From: Thermoplasmata archaeon
Lineage (GTDB): Archaea; Thermoplasmatota; Thermoplasmata; Lutacidiplasmatales; UBA184
Assembly: GCA_035946105.1 (NCBI GenBank)
Contig: DASYZN010000185.1
Span: 1 to 29,315, forward strand
Length of the DNA stretch: 29,315 bases
Reading direction: 5' to 3'
Both the position numbers and the translations under genes were made by a program. Shown here one piece after another: positions 17,460 through 21,608 of this stretch. Each line of letters starts with the position of its first letter. Position 1 is the stretch's first letter. The notes under the pieces were generated by a model, which did not search any database, had not been told where the DNA came from, and saw nothing but the letters and a program-made list of their open reading frames with translations.

Positions 17460-17799
17460 ATCGGGGGCTAGGGGCGAACGATCCGGGCCGCCGAGAGGGG
17501 ACGACGGTGTCGGAGGCCGACTTCCGGAGGCGTTGATCGTTCTCGAAGAGCGTCTCGATGGGCGCTAGCGTGAGCCTGCCGTGCCTCCCATCGGCCACGA
17601 GACGTTCCCTCTCAGCGAAACCCGGATCCCGCTCCACGAATCCCTCAAGGGTCGCACGGAGGACGTCTGGGTTGCTCGGGCCGCCCGTCTAAAGCCGTTC
17701 GAGCTAGGTCCGGCTGGATACCCGCACGCAAATGGTGGAAGGGGGATCGACGGCCGTGCTGCACCGCGTCTGGCGAGCAGGGCGGGAGTGGTTTCCCCG

Positions 17800-17835
17800 G
17801 TGTCGGGGGGGTGGATTGACGAAGAGTTCGAATCC
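17800..17835. repeat. Outermost att-like copy (attR) of the tRNA 3' end
   Basis: GTGTCGGGGGGG-TGGATTGACGAAGA-GTTCGAATCC has the same 12+14+10 spacing as the copies at 19064 and 20023. Confidence 0.7.
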
Positions 17836-17892
17836 TTGACGGCCTGGCTGCGCTCGCCTCTCCTCAAGCGATCGGACGGGCTTCACGAGTTC

Positions 17893-18288
17893 CTATGGAG
17901 GCAGCAGAGACTCGACCCAAGTGCGGAACCTGCTCGCGCATTGCCGGACCTCCTGCGCTTCTCGTTCGGTGAACTCCCGGGACTCGAACTCTACTCGGTT
18001 TTTCGCCTCGAGGGTACGAGAAACCTGGCGAACCATCCGTTCCGCATCCGCAAGATGGAGCGTGGCGACCATGCCTACGACTCCCGAATGATCTTGCCCG
18101 CTCCAACGCTGTCCTGTGCGCCCCACCGTAAGCGCGTCGCTGGCTGAGATCACGGAGTGGACCCCAAGGAGTCCTACGGAGTTCCAGGCACCCTCCTCAG
18201 CCGCACGGACCATCTGGTCGGCGAACTCGTTCGAACGTTCCCAATAGACCTTGAATCGAGACTTGGGTAGTACCTCGGTCCGTCCCAT
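17893..18288 (-). CDS. HEPN domain protein (partner of the minimal nucleotidyltransferase)
   Basis: All-helical 131-aa protein with H.VISA.DAL, SGQDH, KNRVEF and a C-terminal EA......A..F..WV. It lies 3 nt downstream of the MNT gene. Confidence 0.72.
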   Translation of the reverse strand: MGRTEVLPKSRFKVYWERSNEFADQMVRAAEEGAWNSVGLLGVHSVISASDALTVGRTGQRWSGQDHSGVVGMVATLHLADAERMVRQVSRTLEAKNRVEFESREFTEREAQEVRQCASRFRTWVESLLPP

Positions 18289-18291
18289 CGG

Positions 18292-18885
18292 TCAATCGAC
18301 TCCGATGACGCTCATTCCATCCTCTTCAATGGACTTCAGGAGAGCCGGATTGCGCGGTCGCGCCACCTCTGCTCGAGAGTAGATGAGGGCCGAAACGGGA
18401 TTCCCGTACCGATTCCAAAGGTCCGACCGAAGACGGTCGACCGCTTCCGCCGCCCTGGCCCTTCCGCCGGCGGCTCGCACTTCGAGGAAGAGATCGATGT
18501 CGCTGTCATCCCTCTCTTCCCCCCGCGGAATCGAACCAAACAGTCGAGCCCGCTCGATCCCCGCCAGCCGGAGGCCATCCGATAGTTCCCGAACTAGTAC
18601 GGAGCGGAGGCTGGACTCGTGGTGGAAGAGGTCTGCAAGGACGGGCCAGAAAACGTGTCTCCGATTGAGCTGCCAGGAGTAGGACCTCCCGACCACCTCT
18701 CGGTCCACCAACGACGTATCTGCGAGCTCGCTCAGTTCTCGCGCGGCTTGCGCGACCGAGACTCGGGCCGTTCGGGCGAGCTCCCGACCGGTCCACCTTT
18801 GATCCGGAGCGCCGAACATTGTCCGAAGCAGCCTGAGCTTGGTCGGGCTGCCGAGTAGGGGGTCCAACGCGTCATGAAATCTCAT
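18292..18885 (-). CDS. wHTH (ArsR-like) fused to a minimal nucleotidyltransferase (MNT)
   Basis: N-terminal HTH (TGRELARTARVS...A.REL.EL....LV) and an exact GS-X10-DXD motif (FGSIPRGEERDDSDIDL). Start at MRFH (18885) is inferred from the upstream GAAGGGCTTATGTA promoter. Confidence 0.85.
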   Translation of the reverse strand: MRFHDALDPLLGSPTKLRLLRTMFGAPDQRWTGRELARTARVSVAQAARELSELADTSLVDREVVGRSYSWQLNRRHVFWPVLADLFHHESSLRSVLVRELSDGLRLAGIERARLFGSIPRGEERDDSDIDLFLEVRAAGGRARAAEAVDRLRSDLWNRYGNPVSALIYSRAEVARPRNPALLKSIEEDGMSVIGVD

Positions 18886-18998
18886 GTATCGTATAGGAGA
18901 CATATGACTCGCAGCGATTACATAAGCCCTTCGGTCGATGGCTTTGGCCCCGAAAGGGGTCGGTCTCATGGCCATTGTGGCAACTGCTCTCGGCCGGC

Positions 18999-19099
18999 AG
19001 GTTCAAATCCTTACGAATCCGAGGTGAAATCCACTCGAATTCACCTCAGAAATCGCAAGTCTTGTGTCGGGGGGGTGAACCGCAAGAAGGTTCAAATCC
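18999..19099. repeat. About 100-bp att-like unit A
   Basis: AGGTTCAAATCC, then 49 nt containing the inverted repeat GAGGTGAA/TTCACCTC, then TCTTGTGTCGGGGGGGTGAACCGCAAGAAGGTTCAAATCC. The last 40 bp are 39/40 identical to unit B. Confidence 0.9.
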
Positions 19100-19165
19100 T
19101 AACCGAAGCCCGAACTCGCCCGCCAGCGGGGATGATGGACCTGCCCTCCCCGTCCGTTGGTCAGA

Positions 19166-19582
19166 CTACCGAAGGCCCTCTACGTCGGACGTGCCAATCA
19201 GGCGGATTCCCTTCACTCGTCGGAAATCGTGGTCGTAGGTCCAGACGGGAGCGTCGAGGTTCAAGGCGAGCGCTACGTATTCCCAGTCGGTCTCGTCTCC
19301 AGCGGCGCCTGCCAATGCCTTGGCTTTCTCTTCGTGTCGTCGGAGAGCATCGAGCGGCACTTCCTGGATCTGTCCACGGAGAATTCGAAGGACCGAATGG
19401 GTTTGGGCCGGAGTGATCCCCGCCCGTCTAGCGACTCGAGGAAGCTGTCGTTCGGCCTCTTTCACAATGTCGGGCGGGGCCACGAATCTCACGCCCTTCG
19501 CATGGAGCAGGACCTGCCGGGCTCGTCCGTCCTTGAAGAGGCAAGCGACGAGGACGCTTGCGTCCACAACGACGGGTTTCAA
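19166..19582 (-). CDS. PIN domain (VapC-like) toxin
   Basis: VVVDASVL, E42-like VKEAE, D.TD.EYVALAL, and VWTYD.DF. Confidence 0.9.
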   Translation of the reverse strand: MKPVVVDASVLVACLFKDGRARQVLLHAKGVRFVAPPDIVKEAERQLPRVARRAGITPAQTHSVLRILRGQIQEVPLDALRRHEEKAKALAGAAGDETDWEYVALALNLDAPVWTYDHDFRRVKGIRLIGTSDVEGLR

Positions 19583-19797
19583 GGATGCCTTTGGGCCGCC
19601 GCACGCCGGATACGGCGTCCGAGCGTGACAGCATCTCGCTCCGTCAGTTGGGACGCCTCGAGCAATCGATCCAGCACATGTAACCGGTCAACCTCTTGCT
19701 GGAAGGCGGTTCGAGCGACCTCTGACCAGCGGATCTCTGGATGCCGACGCATCTCTTCGTGCAGTCCTTTCGGAACCGCGAGGGTGACGTTCGTCAT
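19579..19797 (-). CDS. Ribbon-helix-helix-type antitoxin
   Basis: MTNVTLAVP..L...M..HPEIRWSEVAR.A. It overlaps the PIN start (ATGA) and is a typical archaeal antitoxin partner. Confidence 0.85.
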   Translation of the reverse strand: MTNVTLAVPKGLHEEMRRHPEIRWSEVARTAFQQEVDRLHVLDRLLEASQLTERDAVTLGRRIRRAAAQRHP

Positions 19798-19817
19798 CGG
19801 TTATCGGACGGCATAAG

Positions 19818-19845
19818 GGAAATAAGTAATTTTCCATAACCTACG
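19818..19845 (-). promoter_or_regulatory. Promoter/operator of the RHH-PIN operon
   Basis: Minus-strand GTAGGTTATGG (TATA-like) overlaps the inverted repeat GGAAA-N8-TTTCC (19818-19835) in an AT-rich patch upstream of the antitoxin ATG. Confidence 0.4.
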
Positions 19846-19956
19846 ACGGGAGATTCTCGGAGACGGGCTCGTTCGGAGCAGCGGAGCGGTGGCACGCGCC
19901 CAGGAACCATCGAAAGAGGCGGACGGCCCTTGCCTGACCGTAGAGTGTTTTTCGGG

Positions 19957-20058
19957 AGGTTCAAATCCGTGTGAGACCGATCTGGAATTTAACCAATTTC
20001 TCGTCAGTGAAACTCGATTCTTGTGTCGGGGGGGTGAACCGCAAGAAAGTTCAAATCC
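19957..20058. repeat. About 100-bp att-like unit B
   Basis: AGGTTCAAATCC, then 50 nt, then TCTTGTGTCGGGGGGGTGAACCGCAAGAAAGTTCAAATCC. Same architecture as unit A. Confidence 0.9.
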
Positions 20059-20165
20059 CCTCCAACCCGCCAGAATCGCAAAGTTGCCGCGACCGATGTC
20101 CCGGTATCCGACCGGCTCAACTGCTGCGGCGGCCACACACCGAGCGATCTATCGATTATGGCCAT

Positions 20166-20207
20166 CTATTGGTGTTTATTGGTCATTTGCCCAATAACTC
20201 CAAATAG
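20166..20207. promoter_or_regulatory. Nested inverted repeats upstream of the AAA ATPase (putative operator)
   Basis: A perfect TTATTGG-N8-CCAATAA (20176-20197), flanked by CTATTGG (20166) and CCAAATAG (20200). Confidence 0.55.
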
Positions 20208-20237
20208 AACCCAATTCTTGCCGCGACCGAGGCGGCC

Positions 20238-21416
20238 GTGGATCCTGTCACCAACCCGTTTTCGCCGGGTGCGGGAGCCCCGCCACCCGAGCTGGTTGGA
20301 CGGCAGGAGATCCTCGAGCGCGCGCGGGTGCTACTTGCTCGGGTCATCCAAGGTCGCTCGGCGAAGAGCATCCTCATGACCGGACTCCGGGGCGTGGGAA
20401 AAACAGTCCTTCTCAATGAAATCAAAGCGCTCGCCGCCGAATCCGGCTATCGAACGATTCTGGTCGAGACGCCCGAACAATCGGGCTTGCTTCCTCACCT
20501 CATACCCCAAGTCCGCGGTTTGCTCCTCGAGCTTGACCAGGGAACGGGTGTTAGCGCGCGCGTGCGCCGAGCACTCGGAGTTCTGAAGTCGTTCGCTTCT
20601 GCGGTTCGCGTGGGATACGCTGGCTTCGAGATCTCCCTGGATTTCGAGGCCCAGGCTGGAGTTGCTGACAGCGGCGACCTCGAGCATGATCTCGCCGACC
20701 TCTTCGTCGCGTTGGCCGAGGCCGCGAAGGACCGCGGGACTGGCGTCGCACTGCTGATTGACGAGCTTCAGTACATTTCGGAACTCGAGCTCCGGGCCCT
20801 GACCATGGCGATGCACAAGCTCGCCCAGGAACAGCTTCCGCTCGTCCTCGTCGGCGCCGGACTTCCGACGCTTCCCGGTCTCGCCGGGCGCGCGCGCTCG
20901 TACGCTGAACGACTGTTCGACTTCCCAACCATTGGCGCTCTAACGCAGGACGAGGCCGGTCGAGCCATCATCGCCCCGATGGCTTCCGCCCAGGTACGGA
21001 TCGACCCGGCCGCCCTAGCAGAAATCTTCGCCCAGACTCAGGGGTATCCGTACTTCCTCCAAGAGTGGGCGTATCAGACTTGGAACCGCGCGGCGGGTTC
21101 ACCTGTTACCCTAGATGCCGTGAGAGAAGCGACGCCGATTATCACTGCCCGCCTTGACGAGGGGTTCTTCCGTGTGAGATTCGACCGGCTAACGCGATCG
21201 GAGCGTCGATACCTTCGTGCCATGGCAGAAGTCCCCCCTGACCAACGAACCACCGGGAAGGTGGCGGAAATCCTCGGGTTCAAGGTCACAAGCATGGGTC
21301 CGACACGTGGGAATCTGATCAGCAAAGGAATGGTGTACAGCCCGGAACACGGTCGGCTAGACTTTACCGTTCCACTTTTCGACAAGTTCATGCGAAGGAC
21401 GATTCCTAACCTATAG
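20238..21416 (+). CDS. Stand-alone AAA/P-loop ATPase (AAA_16-like) with a C-terminal wHTH
   Basis: NPF.PGAG..PP.L.GR, Walker A GLRGVGKT, Walker B LLIDELQ, T.GYPYFLQ, and a C-terminal HTH (TGKVAEILG...TSMGPTRGNLISKGMVY). GTG start. Confidence 0.9.
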   Translation: MDPVTNPFSPGAGAPPPELVGRQEILERARVLLARVIQGRSAKSILMTGLRGVGKTVLLNEIKALAAESGYRTILVETPEQSGLLPHLIPQVRGLLLELDQGTGVSARVRRALGVLKSFASAVRVGYAGFEISLDFEAQAGVADSGDLEHDLADLFVALAEAAKDRGTGVALLIDELQYISELELRALTMAMHKLAQEQLPLVLVGAGLPTLPGLAGRARSYAERLFDFPTIGALTQDEAGRAIIAPMASAQVRIDPAALAEIFAQTQGYPYFLQEWAYQTWNRAAGSPVTLDAVREATPIITARLDEGFFRVRFDRLTRSERRYLRAMAEVPPDQRTTGKVAEILGFKVTSMGPTRGNLISKGMVYSPEHGRLDFTVPLFDKFMRRTIPNL

Positions 21417-21504
21417 CGTCGGCTCAACGAGCGATTCCTGCGAAACTCGCGGGCAAACCAATCGTATGTTGTCGGAAACAATCGATTCCGAATCATCATC
21501 AGTG

Positions 21505-21608
21505 TGTCGGGGGGGGGATTTGAACCCCCGGCCCCAGGATCTCTCAGGGGTCGGTCGGGCGCCGACCCGCTATGAGTCCCGTGCTCTACCAGGCTGAGCC
21601 ACCCCGAC
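21505..21608 (-). tRNA. tRNA-Met(CAT), elongator type, with a 30-nt intron at position 37/38 (21541-21570)
   Basis: Full cloverleaf: GTCGGGG/CCCCGAC acceptor stem, GCTC/GAGC D-stem, CGGGA/TCCTG anticodon stem, CT-CAT-A loop, GGGGG-TTCAAAT-CCCCC T-arm and discriminator A. The bulge-helix-bulge uses CTCA/TGAG. G1:C72 and A31:U39 favour elongator Met over initiator or Ile2. CCA is not encoded. Confidence 0.95.

What the first reader, a model, noticed from the sequence alone, without database searches (positions are those of the whole stretch)
18999..20058. The cassette junction mimics the tRNA T-loop in inverted orientation
Seen: each internal junction has two GGTTCAAATCC-type motifs 89-90 bp apart. 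Both are identical to the tRNA T-loop (GGTTCAAATCC) but inverted relative to the tRNA copy. TGAACC-GCAAGAA-GGTTCA forms a 6-bp hairpin next to the G7 core in unit A. The 49-50 nt middles are diverged but alignable (GA..CCGA..TG.AAT.....TTC.C.TCAG) and contain an inverted repeat (GAGGTGAA/TTCACCTC in unit A). Inference: the T-loop 10-mer is the recombinase binding site in attB and is reused as an arm or core site. Alternatively, the junction is transcribed as a tRNA-like decoy or processing signal. The sites do not fit the integron attC consensus.
Basis: partly seen in the sequence, partly recalled or inferred. Interest (0 to 1): 0.62.

Follow-up and report, generated by a model that had tools for sequence, protein, structure and literature searches.

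The report
T-loop-like boxes bounding archaeal att sites
The repeated tRNA-T-loop-like 11-mers are real and mark the two outer edges of a roughly 100-base recombination site at which small toxin-antitoxin and defence gene cassettes are swapped in and out behind a tRNA-Met gene of a soil archaeon; they behave like fixed protein-docking boxes on DNA, not like a folded RNA or DNA hairpin.

Summary
GGTTCAAATCC-type 11-mers lie on the + strand at 19000, 19089, 19958 and 20048, spaced 89 and 90 bp, with a weaker copy at 17825. All are inverted relative to the T-loop of an intron-bearing tRNA-Met (21505-21608, minus strand).

Each internal junction is an attP-type site:
- box 1;
- about 28 variable nt;
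- a palindromic box 2 (TTTC-N6/7-GAAA);
- an 11-13 bp core, TGTGTCGGGGGGG, identical to the tRNA 3' end;
- 13 nt;
- the P' box.

In about 45 related junctions from soil Thermoplasmata (Lutacidiplasmatales-like), box 1 sits 65-66 nt before the core and the P' box 23-25 nt after it. Conservation stops at the outer edges of the boxes.

No hairpin is conserved or covaries, no Rfam family matches, and position 7 of the box (the equivalent of tRNA A58) is free to vary. Integron attC boxes and an integron integrase were not found.

Soil metagenome contigs show one cassette precisely absent and another replaced, with the joints at the core. A tyrosine integrase family abuts this same tRNA-Met in relatives and carries the same box 28-29 nt upstream of its start codon. 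No such integrase was found in this 80%-complete MAG.

Most likely the boxes are accessory (arm-type) recombinase sites. A promoter-like role is the main rival. This scan has noted integrase-less tRNA cassette arrays in other archaea before.

The parts
17801..17835 (+). Leftmost half-site O-P': core TGTCGGGGGGG (17801-11), class II spacer TGGATTGACGAAG, and P' box AGTTCGAATCC (17825-35). It has no cassette-type P arm to its left.
   Evidence: The same O-P' plus cassette occurs in G290 (L012 9303).
17836..18999 (-). Cassette 0: a 131-aa ORF in the HEPN position (no Pfam hit itself; HEPN hits in the counterparts L030 and L037), 17893-18288, and a wHTH-nucleotidyltransferase (MNT), 18292-18975.
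   Evidence: The cassette is shared with G290, where it is tRNA-proximal. It is precisely absent from a soil contig (X6).
19000..19010 (+). Junction A, box 1 (GGTTCAAATCC), 65 nt before TGTC of the core. It belongs to the P arm of cassette 0.
19021..19047 (+). Cassette-specific inverted repeat GAGGTGAA/TTCACCTC inside the variable middle.
   Evidence: It folds well only in junction A (z -2.0 to -4.4). It pairs in only 55% of cells across 13 junctions and shows no covariation.
19039..19055 (+). Junction A, box 2 (ATTCACCTCAGAAATCG). The family consensus is TTTCNCGTCAGAAAANCG, a TTTC-N6/7-GAAA palindrome.
19063..19075 (+). Junction A core (O), TGTGTCGGGGGGG. It is the reverse complement of the tRNA-Met 3' end and holds the crossover region.
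19076..19099 (+). Junction A P' arm: TGAACC-GCAAGAA-GGTTCA imperfect palindrome (19076-94) and P' box GGTTCAAATCC (19089-99), 24 nt after TGTC.
19100..19957 (-). Cassette A: PIN-domain VapC-like toxin (19166-19582) with an upstream 72-aa partner (19579-19797).
19958..19968 (+). Junction B, box 1 (GGTTCAAATCC), 66 nt before TGTC.
19997..20013 (+). Junction B, box 2 (TTTCTCGTCAGTGAAAC).
20022..20034 (+). Junction B core, TGTGTCGGGGGGG.
20035..20058 (+). Junction B P' arm with P' box AGTTCAAATCC (20048-58).
   Evidence: Similarity to a soil variant ends at 20059, right after the box.
20059..21502 (+). Cassette B: AAA_16/AAA_22 ATPase (20238-21416). Its tRNA-side arm is degenerate and has no box 1.
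   Evidence: It is replaced by an unrelated 849-nt segment in soil run X6.
21503..21515 (+). [quoted passage not shown]
21505..21608 (-). tRNA-Met(CAT) with a 30-nt intron. The genuine T-loop GGTTCAAATCC is at 21516-21526.

Best explanation
Each internal junction is a complete attP-type site (P-O-P') of about 100 bp. It belongs to a family of tRNA-targeting tyrosine-integrase elements of soil Thermoplasmata.

Strand exchange falls within the 11-13 bp core TGTGTCGGGGGGG, which is identical to the 3' end of tRNA-Met. A cassette therefore runs from core to core. It carries P' at its left end and P at its right end.

The two T-loop-like 11-mers (RGTTCRAATCC) are the outermost conserved boxes of the site. 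They are direct repeats, fixed at -65/-66 and +24 from the core. With the palindromic box 2 they most likely act on duplex DNA as accessory (arm-type) docking sites for the integrase and/or a helper protein that assembles the recombination complex. The integrase is supplied in trans.

Shown here: the boxes, their spacing, the core-to-core cassette boundaries, strain-level cassette gain, loss and replacement at the core, and an integrase family at the same tRNA in relatives.

Inferred: which protein binds the boxes, and that the likeness to the T-loop reflects how the enzyme reads tRNA genes.
For: - Motif enrichment in the window: 6 matches against 0.32 expected.
- Cassette boundaries: the HEPN/MNT cassette shared between G000 and G290 stops matching exactly at the core on both sides.
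- Spacing: box 1 lies 65-66 nt from the core in 24 of 27 P arms and in 16 of 19 P arms found among tRNA-Met loci of 62 more species. The P' box lies at +23 to +25. Box-to-box distance is 88-91 nt in 14 junctions, while the sequence between the boxes is diverged.
- No structure: RNAalifold gives -3 kcal/mol and 0 covarying pairs. Alifold finds no consensus on the minus strand (RNA parameters) or on either strand with DNA parameters. For the named hairpins the covariation score is 0.157 against 0.155 in shuffles. Junction B folds no better than shuffles.
- Strain variation: a soil contig from run X6 joins 17802 to 19067 (cassette 0 absent, 11 shared nt) and replaces cassette B. Run X2 has cassette 0 directly on the tRNA.
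- Integrase: a PF00589 integrase lies beside a junction in G426 (L030). Homologues occur in 33 of 180 family genomes. They abut this same tRNA-Met in G010, G476, G380, G344, G411 and G414. In 16 loci the same box lies 9 nt from the tRNA end, at Met, Gly, Leu and Thr tRNAs.
Against: - No binding data exist.
- No integrase of this family was found in G000. The MAG is only 80% complete.
- The integrase N-terminal region of about 150 aa matches no known arm-binding domain.
- The review of archaeal tyrosine recombinases read here does not use the term arm-type at all, so there is no archaeal precedent.
- In integrase-bearing relatives the box lies 28-29 nt upstream of the int start codon, inside the genome-wide AT-rich promoter window. 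A promoter role could explain that copy.
- The box orientation relative to the core differs between integrase-type and cassette-type P arms.
Confidence: 0.6

Rival explanations
1. The boxes are promoter elements (a TATA-like TTCRAAT/TTCATAT with a purine-rich BRE-like 5' flank). They drive the integrase in complete elements and cassette or read-out transcription in cassettes. Their fixed place reflects a regulatory module kept with the att site.
For: - In 16 integrase loci RGTTCATATCC starts 33-34 nt before the int start codon, so its centre is at -28/-29.
- This genome shows an AT-rich bump at -36 to -24 upstream of start codons, typical of leaderless mRNAs. A few host promoters read TTCAAATA.
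- Box 1 of junction A lies 30 nt upstream of the MNT start codon at 18975.
Against: - Distances from the boxes to the nearest ORF starts scatter from 11 to 250 nt. Only 4 of 14 P boxes fall in a promoter-compatible window, which I judge to be about what chance would give (not computed).
- Gene orientation within cassettes is not fixed.
- The boxes are fixed relative to the core, not to the genes.
- TTC[AG]AAT occurs in the -40 to -17 window of only 2 of 369 start codons with unambiguous upstream regions.
Confidence: 0.15
2. The junction acts as folded single-stranded DNA, like an integron attC. The imperfect palindrome next to the core (TGAACC/GGTTCA, or GGATTGAC/GTTCGAATCC) would be the recognised structure.
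For: - P' is an imperfect inverted repeat of T-loop-like sequence in several classes.
- Two junctions (L011 11757 and L165 256) carry a perfect T-arm palindrome next to the core.
- One G/C to C/G double change separates the G000 and G290 copies (GGATT...AATCC against GCATT...AATGC).
Against: - No consensus structure and no covariation beyond shuffles.
- Class III P' arms lack the palindrome.
- G426 copies break the G290-type compensatory pair.
- No RYYYAAC/GTTRRRY box pairs anywhere in the island.
- Cassette boundaries lie in the G-run core, not in a GTT box.
- No integron-type integrase scores above the cut-off in G000.
Confidence: 0.07
3. The boxes are non-functional relics: decayed inverted duplications of the tRNA 3' end, inherited by all cassettes from a common ancestral att site.
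For: - In the TGTCGGAGGGG lineage, box 1 plus its tail (GGGTTCAAATCCCCTCCACACA) resembles the whole tRNA 3' end.
- Perfect T-arm palindromes exist at two junctions.
Against: - The sequence between the boxes has diverged almost completely, while the boxes and their distances are kept across many species and unrelated cargos. This argues for selection.
- Similarity of the box tails to the tRNA end is not significant in the window's lineage (P about 0.06).
Confidence: 0.1
4. The junction is transcribed as a tRNA-like decoy or RNA-processing signal.
For: Identity of the 11-mer to the T-loop.
Against: - The flanks form no T-stem: only the GG/CC pairs, read directly from the sequence.
- The A58-equivalent position is A in 16, T in 9 and C in 2 of the copies.
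- There is no Rfam match at E up to 1 other than the real tRNA.
- There is no conserved fold on either strand.
- One-nt length variation and no common reading frame or structure.
Confidence: 0.03

Closest known systems
attP/attL/attR sites of tRNA-targeting tyrosine integrases with conserved P/P' arms. Examples are the SNJ2-type system of haloarchaeal pleolipoviruses at tRNA-Met (PMC5861418) and, from my own knowledge, lambda-type attP with arm sites.
   Same: A short core (14 bp in SNJ2, 11-13 bp here) identical to the 3' end of tRNA-Met. Conserved flanking arms on the mobile DNA. A tyrosine recombinase beside the att site in complete elements.
   Different: Here the arms carry T-loop-like 11-mers as direct repeats at fixed distances, plus a palindromic box. 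Most units are 0.9-1.5 kb cassettes with no integrase. The integrase shows only a remote match to XerA. Homology to IntSNJ2 was not tested.
Integrase-less att-flanked elements stacked by accretion: CIMEs of Streptococcus (from my own knowledge) and cargo-only tycheposon-type islands at tRNAs in Prochlorococcus (bioRxiv 10.1101/2020.12.28.424599, listed but not read).
   Same: Tandem units bounded by repeats of a tRNA or att core. No recombinase of their own. Presumed mobilisation in trans. Strain-variable order.
   Different: An archaeal host. Very small single-module cassettes, each with a full 100-bp attP-like junction.
Integrons, CALINs and attC, including the archaeal integrons (PMC9668308).
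   Same: Arrays of small, mostly toxin-antitoxin or defence cassettes separated by recombination sites of about 100 bp. Often no integrase nearby.
   Different: No R''/R' boxes, no conserved hairpin, and the crossover lies in a tRNA-derived G-run. The array is anchored on a tRNA, a word that paper never uses. No IntI. That paper does not mention Thermoplasmatota either.
SSV-type 'suicidal' archaeal integrases (PMC7253208, PMC8371274).
   Same: Archaeal, tRNA-targeted, and leaving integrase-less remnants in tandem.
   Different: Here the int gene is not split by attP. It starts about 45 nt from the core and reads away from it.

Membership tests
tRNA-targeted tyrosine-integrase att site (P-O-P') | Core identical to part of the target tRNA gene and repeated at every unit boundary | tested here: met
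   TGTGTCGGGGGGG at 19063, 20022 and 21503, and with 1 mismatch at 17799. It is the reverse complement of the tRNA 3' end.
tRNA-targeted tyrosine-integrase att site (P-O-P') | Units are exchanged exactly at the core in related strains | tested here: met
   G000 against G290 for the shared cassette. Soil contig joints 17802->19067 and 20059->21503.
tRNA-targeted tyrosine-integrase att site (P-O-P') | A cognate tyrosine recombinase is associated with the site | tested here: inconclusive
   Met in relatives: L030, and int abutting the same tRNA-Met in 6 genomes. Not found in G000, which is 80% complete.
Arm-type (accessory) integrase binding sites | A repeated motif on both arms at fixed distance from the core, conserved while neighbouring sequence drifts | tested here: met
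Arm-type (accessory) integrase binding sites | Integrase or helper protein binds the motif; the integrase has a separate arm-binding domain | not testable with these tools
   The N-terminal region of about 150 aa has no Pfam match.
Integron attC / CALIN | Inverted R'' (RYYYAAC) and R' (GTTRRRY) boxes 40-140 nt apart | tested here: not met
   0 properly ordered pairs in 17700-21600 on either strand. The boxes here are direct repeats.
Integron attC / CALIN | Conserved imperfect hairpin of the single strand | tested here: not met
Integron attC / CALIN | Integron integrase with the IntI-specific domain | tested here: not met
   Best TIGR02249 match in G000 is 81.6 bits against a 265-bit cut-off. 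The genome is incomplete.
tRNA or tRNA-like RNA | T-stem pairing around the loop and an invariant A58 | tested here: not met
   The flanks pair only at GG/CC. Position 7 of the box is A16/T9/C2. No Rfam hit at E up to 1.
SSV-type suicidal integrase element | attP core inside the int ORF, so that integration splits the gene | tested here: not met
   The int start lies 40-50 nt outside the core and reads away from it.

The most novel reading that the evidence does not exclude
The integrase family reads the near-universal T-loop 11-mer as a generic 'this is a tRNA gene' signal, with target choice set only by core identity (Met, Gly, Leu and Thr tRNAs are all used). The same reader is recruited to T-loop mimics at both edges of a portable 100-bp site. 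Any gene flanked by that site then becomes a trans-mobilisable cassette. This would be a double-strand, tRNA-anchored archaeal analogue of the integron.
Probability: 0.2. Interest if true: 0.7.

Novelty: new variant of a known kind. Interest (0 to 1): 0.45.

Why it matters
It gives a defined, compact site of about 100 bp: two boxes, a palindrome and a 13-bp core. It also gives a candidate integrase family for a cassette-shuffling system in abundant but uncultured soil archaea. Complex, arm-bearing att sites are not described in the review of archaeal recombinases read here. If the boxes prove to be integrase docking sites, the system would explain how integrase-less toxin-antitoxin and defence cassettes move between strains. 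It could also serve as a portable integration site. If they are only promoter elements or relics, the finding is an ordinary integration hot spot.

Tried and rejected
- Default ARAGORN found no tRNA. Rfam and ARAGORN with introns allowed did.
- Conserved hairpin or RNA: rejected after RNAalifold on both strands with RNA and DNA parameters, pair counting and single-sequence folds.
- Hammerhead-like reading of the reverse complement, CTGACGAGAAA: considered by eye. There is no GAAA right after the would-be stem II and no Rfam hit.
- Coding constraint across the junction: rejected. Copies differ by 1 nt (65 against 66) and the two junctions read the boxes in different frames.
- Empty-site search with the left flank failed. 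Only a paralogous 220-nt segment matches, and it lies elsewhere in G290.
- Distal ends of integrase elements in G010 and G380 were not found by repeat search.
- 'Boxes are inverted copies of the entire tRNA 3' end': only marginal in this lineage (P about 0.06).
- Promoter role for cassette genes: distances do not cluster.
- A weak tblastn hit of the integrase on G000 C195 (E = 0.033) coincides with the tRNA-Gly gene and shows no element next to it, so I treat it as spurious.
- Co-occurrence of integrase and arrays: 5 of 12 array genomes carry the integrase, against about 2 expected. This is too weak, and the genomes are kin, so I did not use it.
Full report
**What is in the sequence.** The window is a whole 29.3-kb contig of a 1.6-Mb, 80%-complete MAG. 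Related records are titled as soil Thermoplasmata, some as Candidatus Lutacidiplasmatales. A low-GC island (0.56-0.63 against about 0.70) spans 17800-21500. It ends at a tRNA-Met(CAT) gene on the minus strand, 21505-21608, which carries a 30-nt intron. Rfam scores the tRNA at 56 bits. ARAGORN finds it only with introns allowed and missed it by default. The ribosomal protein S3Ae gene follows.

**The motif.** GGTTCAAATCC (up to 1 mismatch) occurs on the + strand at 19000, 19089, 19958 and 20048. It occurs on the - strand at 21516, which is the tRNA's own T-loop. That is 6 matches in the window against 0.32 expected by chance. A fifth, weaker + strand copy lies at 17825. The spacings are 89 and 90 bp. 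The 6-bp hairpin and unit A's inverted repeat are present as described.

**Anatomy of the junction.** The 13-mer TGTGTCGGGGGGG recurs at 19063, 20022 and 21503, and with one mismatch at 17799. It is the reverse complement of the tRNA's 3' end: two trailing nt, the discriminator, the acceptor 3' strand and the first T-stem bases. The island is thus three units:
- an MNT nucleotidyltransferase with a 131-aa ORF in the HEPN position (no Pfam hit itself; the counterparts in L030 and L037 hit HEPN);
- a PIN/VapC-like pair;
- an AAA ATPase.

Each unit is bounded by the core. Each internal junction reads: box 1 (GGTTCAAATCC), about 28 variable nt, box 2 (TTTCNCGTCAGAAAANCG), about 9 nt, the core, 13 nt, and the P' box (RGTTCAAATCC).

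**Related copies.** Pattern searches found the same junction type in 11-12 of 180 genomes of the same family. After fetching those loci I collected about 34 junctions. More came from 30 and then 64 loci centred on the tRNA-Met/S3Ae pair.
- Box 1 lies 65-66 nt before TGTC in 24 of 27 P arms, and in 16 of 19 further P arms found among the loci of 62 other species.
- The P' box lies 23-25 nt after TGTC.
- Box-to-box distance is 88-91 nt in 14 complete junctions.
- In an alignment of 13 complete junctions, the invariant columns cluster in box 1, box 2, the core and the P' box, while the stretch between the boxes is diverged.
- Similarity between different cassettes stops at the outer edge of each box, so the boxes delimit a functional site of about 100 bp.
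- Box 2 is a palindrome, TTTC-N6/7-GAAA. In the lineage whose tRNA ends in TGTCGGAGGGG it reads TTTCTCGGCGAGAAA.

**Where recombination happens.** The HEPN/MNT cassette of this window also occurs in G290, where it is the tRNA-proximal unit. In both genomes the similarity begins and ends inside the core.

Logan contigs of independent soil samples give strain-level variants:
- In run X6 one 3-kb contig matches the left flank up to 17802. It then jumps to 19067, with 11 nt shared by both sides, so cassette 0 is precisely absent.
- The same contig continues through cassette A and junction B to 20059, then carries 849 unrelated nt, and rejoins at 21503.
- In run X2 a contig runs from cassette 0 straight into the tRNA.
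- Other loose ends show other P arms in front of the same cores.

Cassettes are therefore independent core-to-core modules, with P' at the left and P at the right. An internal junction is P(left cassette)-O-P'(right cassette), which has the architecture of an attP.

**Structure or sequence?**
- RNAalifold on the 13 junctions gives -3 kcal/mol with no covarying pair.
- Alifold on the minus strand (RNA parameters) and on both strands with DNA parameters gives no consensus structure.
Unit A's inverted repeat pairs in only 55% of cells. The TGAACC/GGTTCA stem is kept by conservation, not by compensation.
- Junction A folds better than shuffles (z -2.0 to -4.4), but junction B does not (z +0.3 to +0.6).
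- Across 16 P arms the mean z is -0.46.
- The TGAACC stem exists only in class I P' arms. Class II reads TG[G/C]ATTGACGAA.AGTTCGAATCC and class III reads ACATTCCCGAAAAGTTCGAATCC.
- Position 7 of the box, the equivalent of the invariant tRNA A58, is A in 16, T in 9 and C in 2 copies.
- The flanks form no T-stem, and Rfam finds nothing but the real tRNA even at E up to 1.
- The 65/66-nt length variation rules out a coding constraint.

This is the 'fixed sequence and spacing' outcome, which points to protein recognition of duplex DNA.

**Not an integron.** No RYYYAAC...GTTRRRY pair exists in the island. The boxes are direct, not inverted, repeats, and the boundaries lie in the G-run. The best integron-integrase match in the genome is 82 bits against a 265-bit cut-off. 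The paper on archaeal integrons describes classical folded attC sites and mentions neither tRNA anchoring nor Thermoplasmatota.

**The recombinase.** In G426 (L030) a complete junction is followed by two small ORFs, HEPN, MNT and a 486-aa tyrosine recombinase. The recombinase matches PF00589 and has a C-terminal zinc ribbon. Its best PDB relative is XerA, at E = 5e-4.

Homologues occur in 33 of 180 family genomes. They, or fragments of them, directly abut this same tRNA-Met in G010, G476, G380, G344, G411 and G414. An N-terminal fragment also abuts a core in G426 contig C2.

In 16 loci the gene sits right after a tRNA (Met, Gly, Leu or Thr), arranged as: tRNA end, 9 nt, RGTTCATATCC, about 12 nt, CTCTCGARGCG or ACGTCAGAGCG, then the start codon. 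Complete elements thus carry the same two boxes, but inverted relative to the core and closer to it.

The gene is not split by the core, so this is not an SSV-type element. No homologue was found in G000. If the array is active there, the enzyme must come from the unassembled fifth of the genome or from another element.

**What the boxes do (inference).** I favour accessory, arm-type sites for the integrase and/or a helper protein. The reasons are that they are the outermost conserved elements, they keep a rigid distance to the core across unrelated cargos and many species, and they accompany the integrase at four different tRNA targets.

The main rival is a promoter role. The box centre lies 28-29 nt upstream of the int start codon. 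This genome shows the AT-rich bump at -36 to -24 that is typical of leaderless mRNAs. Box 1 of junction A lies 30 nt upstream of the MNT start codon. Against this rival:
- box-to-ORF distances scatter between 11 and 250 nt, and only 4 of 14 P boxes are promoter-compatible;
- gene orientation varies between cassettes;
- TTC[AG]AAT is rare among host promoter windows, 2 of 369.

The two roles are not exclusive. From my own knowledge, integrase promoters overlapping arm sites are known in bacteria.

**Is the T-loop likeness meaningful?** This remains open. The attP position equivalent to the T-loop, next to the core, is poorly conserved. The integrase-proximal box does not follow the T-loop variant of its target tRNA.

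Evolutionary descent from the tRNA end is plausible. Two junctions carry a perfect T-arm palindrome next to the core. In one lineage box 1 plus its tail resembles the whole tRNA 3' end. In the window's lineage that extension is only marginal (P about 0.06).

**Comparison and novelty.** The closest known systems are:
- tRNA-targeted tyrosine-integrase att sites with conserved arms, such as SNJ2 at tRNA-Met (14-bp core, conserved P/P' arms, helper proteins);
- integrase-less att-flanked units stacked by accretion, namely CIMEs (own knowledge) and tycheposon-type islands (preprint listed, not read).

The review of archaeal tyrosine recombinases that I read never uses the term arm-type. A box-bounded 100-bp attP in archaea is therefore a new variant of a known kind, not a new kind.

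Earlier notes of this scan describe nine integrase-less cassette arrays behind archaeal tRNAs in other genomes, and one note on this same array. They are unverified leads that agree with the general picture.

**Verdict.** Interest is moderate.

Noticed in passing
window 21505-21608 (-): The tRNA-Met(CAT) carries a 30-nt intron. Default ARAGORN misses it; Rfam and ARAGORN with introns allowed find it. Many contigs of related MAGs break exactly at this tRNA, which fits a repeat-rich variable locus.
   Followed up: partly
window 19039-19055 and 19997-20013; L103, L113, L169 and others: A second conserved P-arm motif is a palindrome, TTTC-N6/7-GAAA (perfect as TTTCTCGGCGAGAAA in one lineage), about 10 nt from the core. 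It looks like the site of a dimeric DNA-binding protein. The same CGTCAGAG string lies just before the integrase start codon in complete elements.
   Followed up: partly
L011 11757-11800 (G154:C94) and L165, reverse strand, oriented position 256: Two junctions carry a perfect head-to-head T-arm palindrome right after the core (GGATTCGAACCCCCC|GGGGGTTCAAAT). This may be the ancestral form of the P' arm.
   Followed up: partly
G000 contig C121:72-660: Another tyrosine recombinase gene (PF00589) is followed by a copy of the 3' half of tRNA-Ile. The real tRNA-Ile is on C172. This is a different integrative element in the same genome.
   Followed up: no
window 17787-17800; L036 7838; L082, L087: The sequence left of the leftmost core (GTATTTGAACCCCCCGGGGAGG in relatives, degenerate in the window) looks like the integrase-type P arm. 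The arrays may therefore have been built next to an old integrase element whose gene is gone.
   Followed up: partly
G000 genome-wide: Start codons with unambiguous upstream regions show an AT-rich bump at -36 to -24, with motifs such as TTATAG, TTTAAG and TAATAG. This suggests that leaderless transcripts are common in this organism.
   Followed up: partly
L037 5792-9741; L034 6523-10307; L011 10026-11757: Cassettes in related arrays carry HEPN, MNT, an AbiEi antitoxin, small LexA-type wHTH proteins and an AAA_14-DUF4143 ATPase. The cargo is mostly toxin-antitoxin or abortive-infection type.
   Followed up: partly
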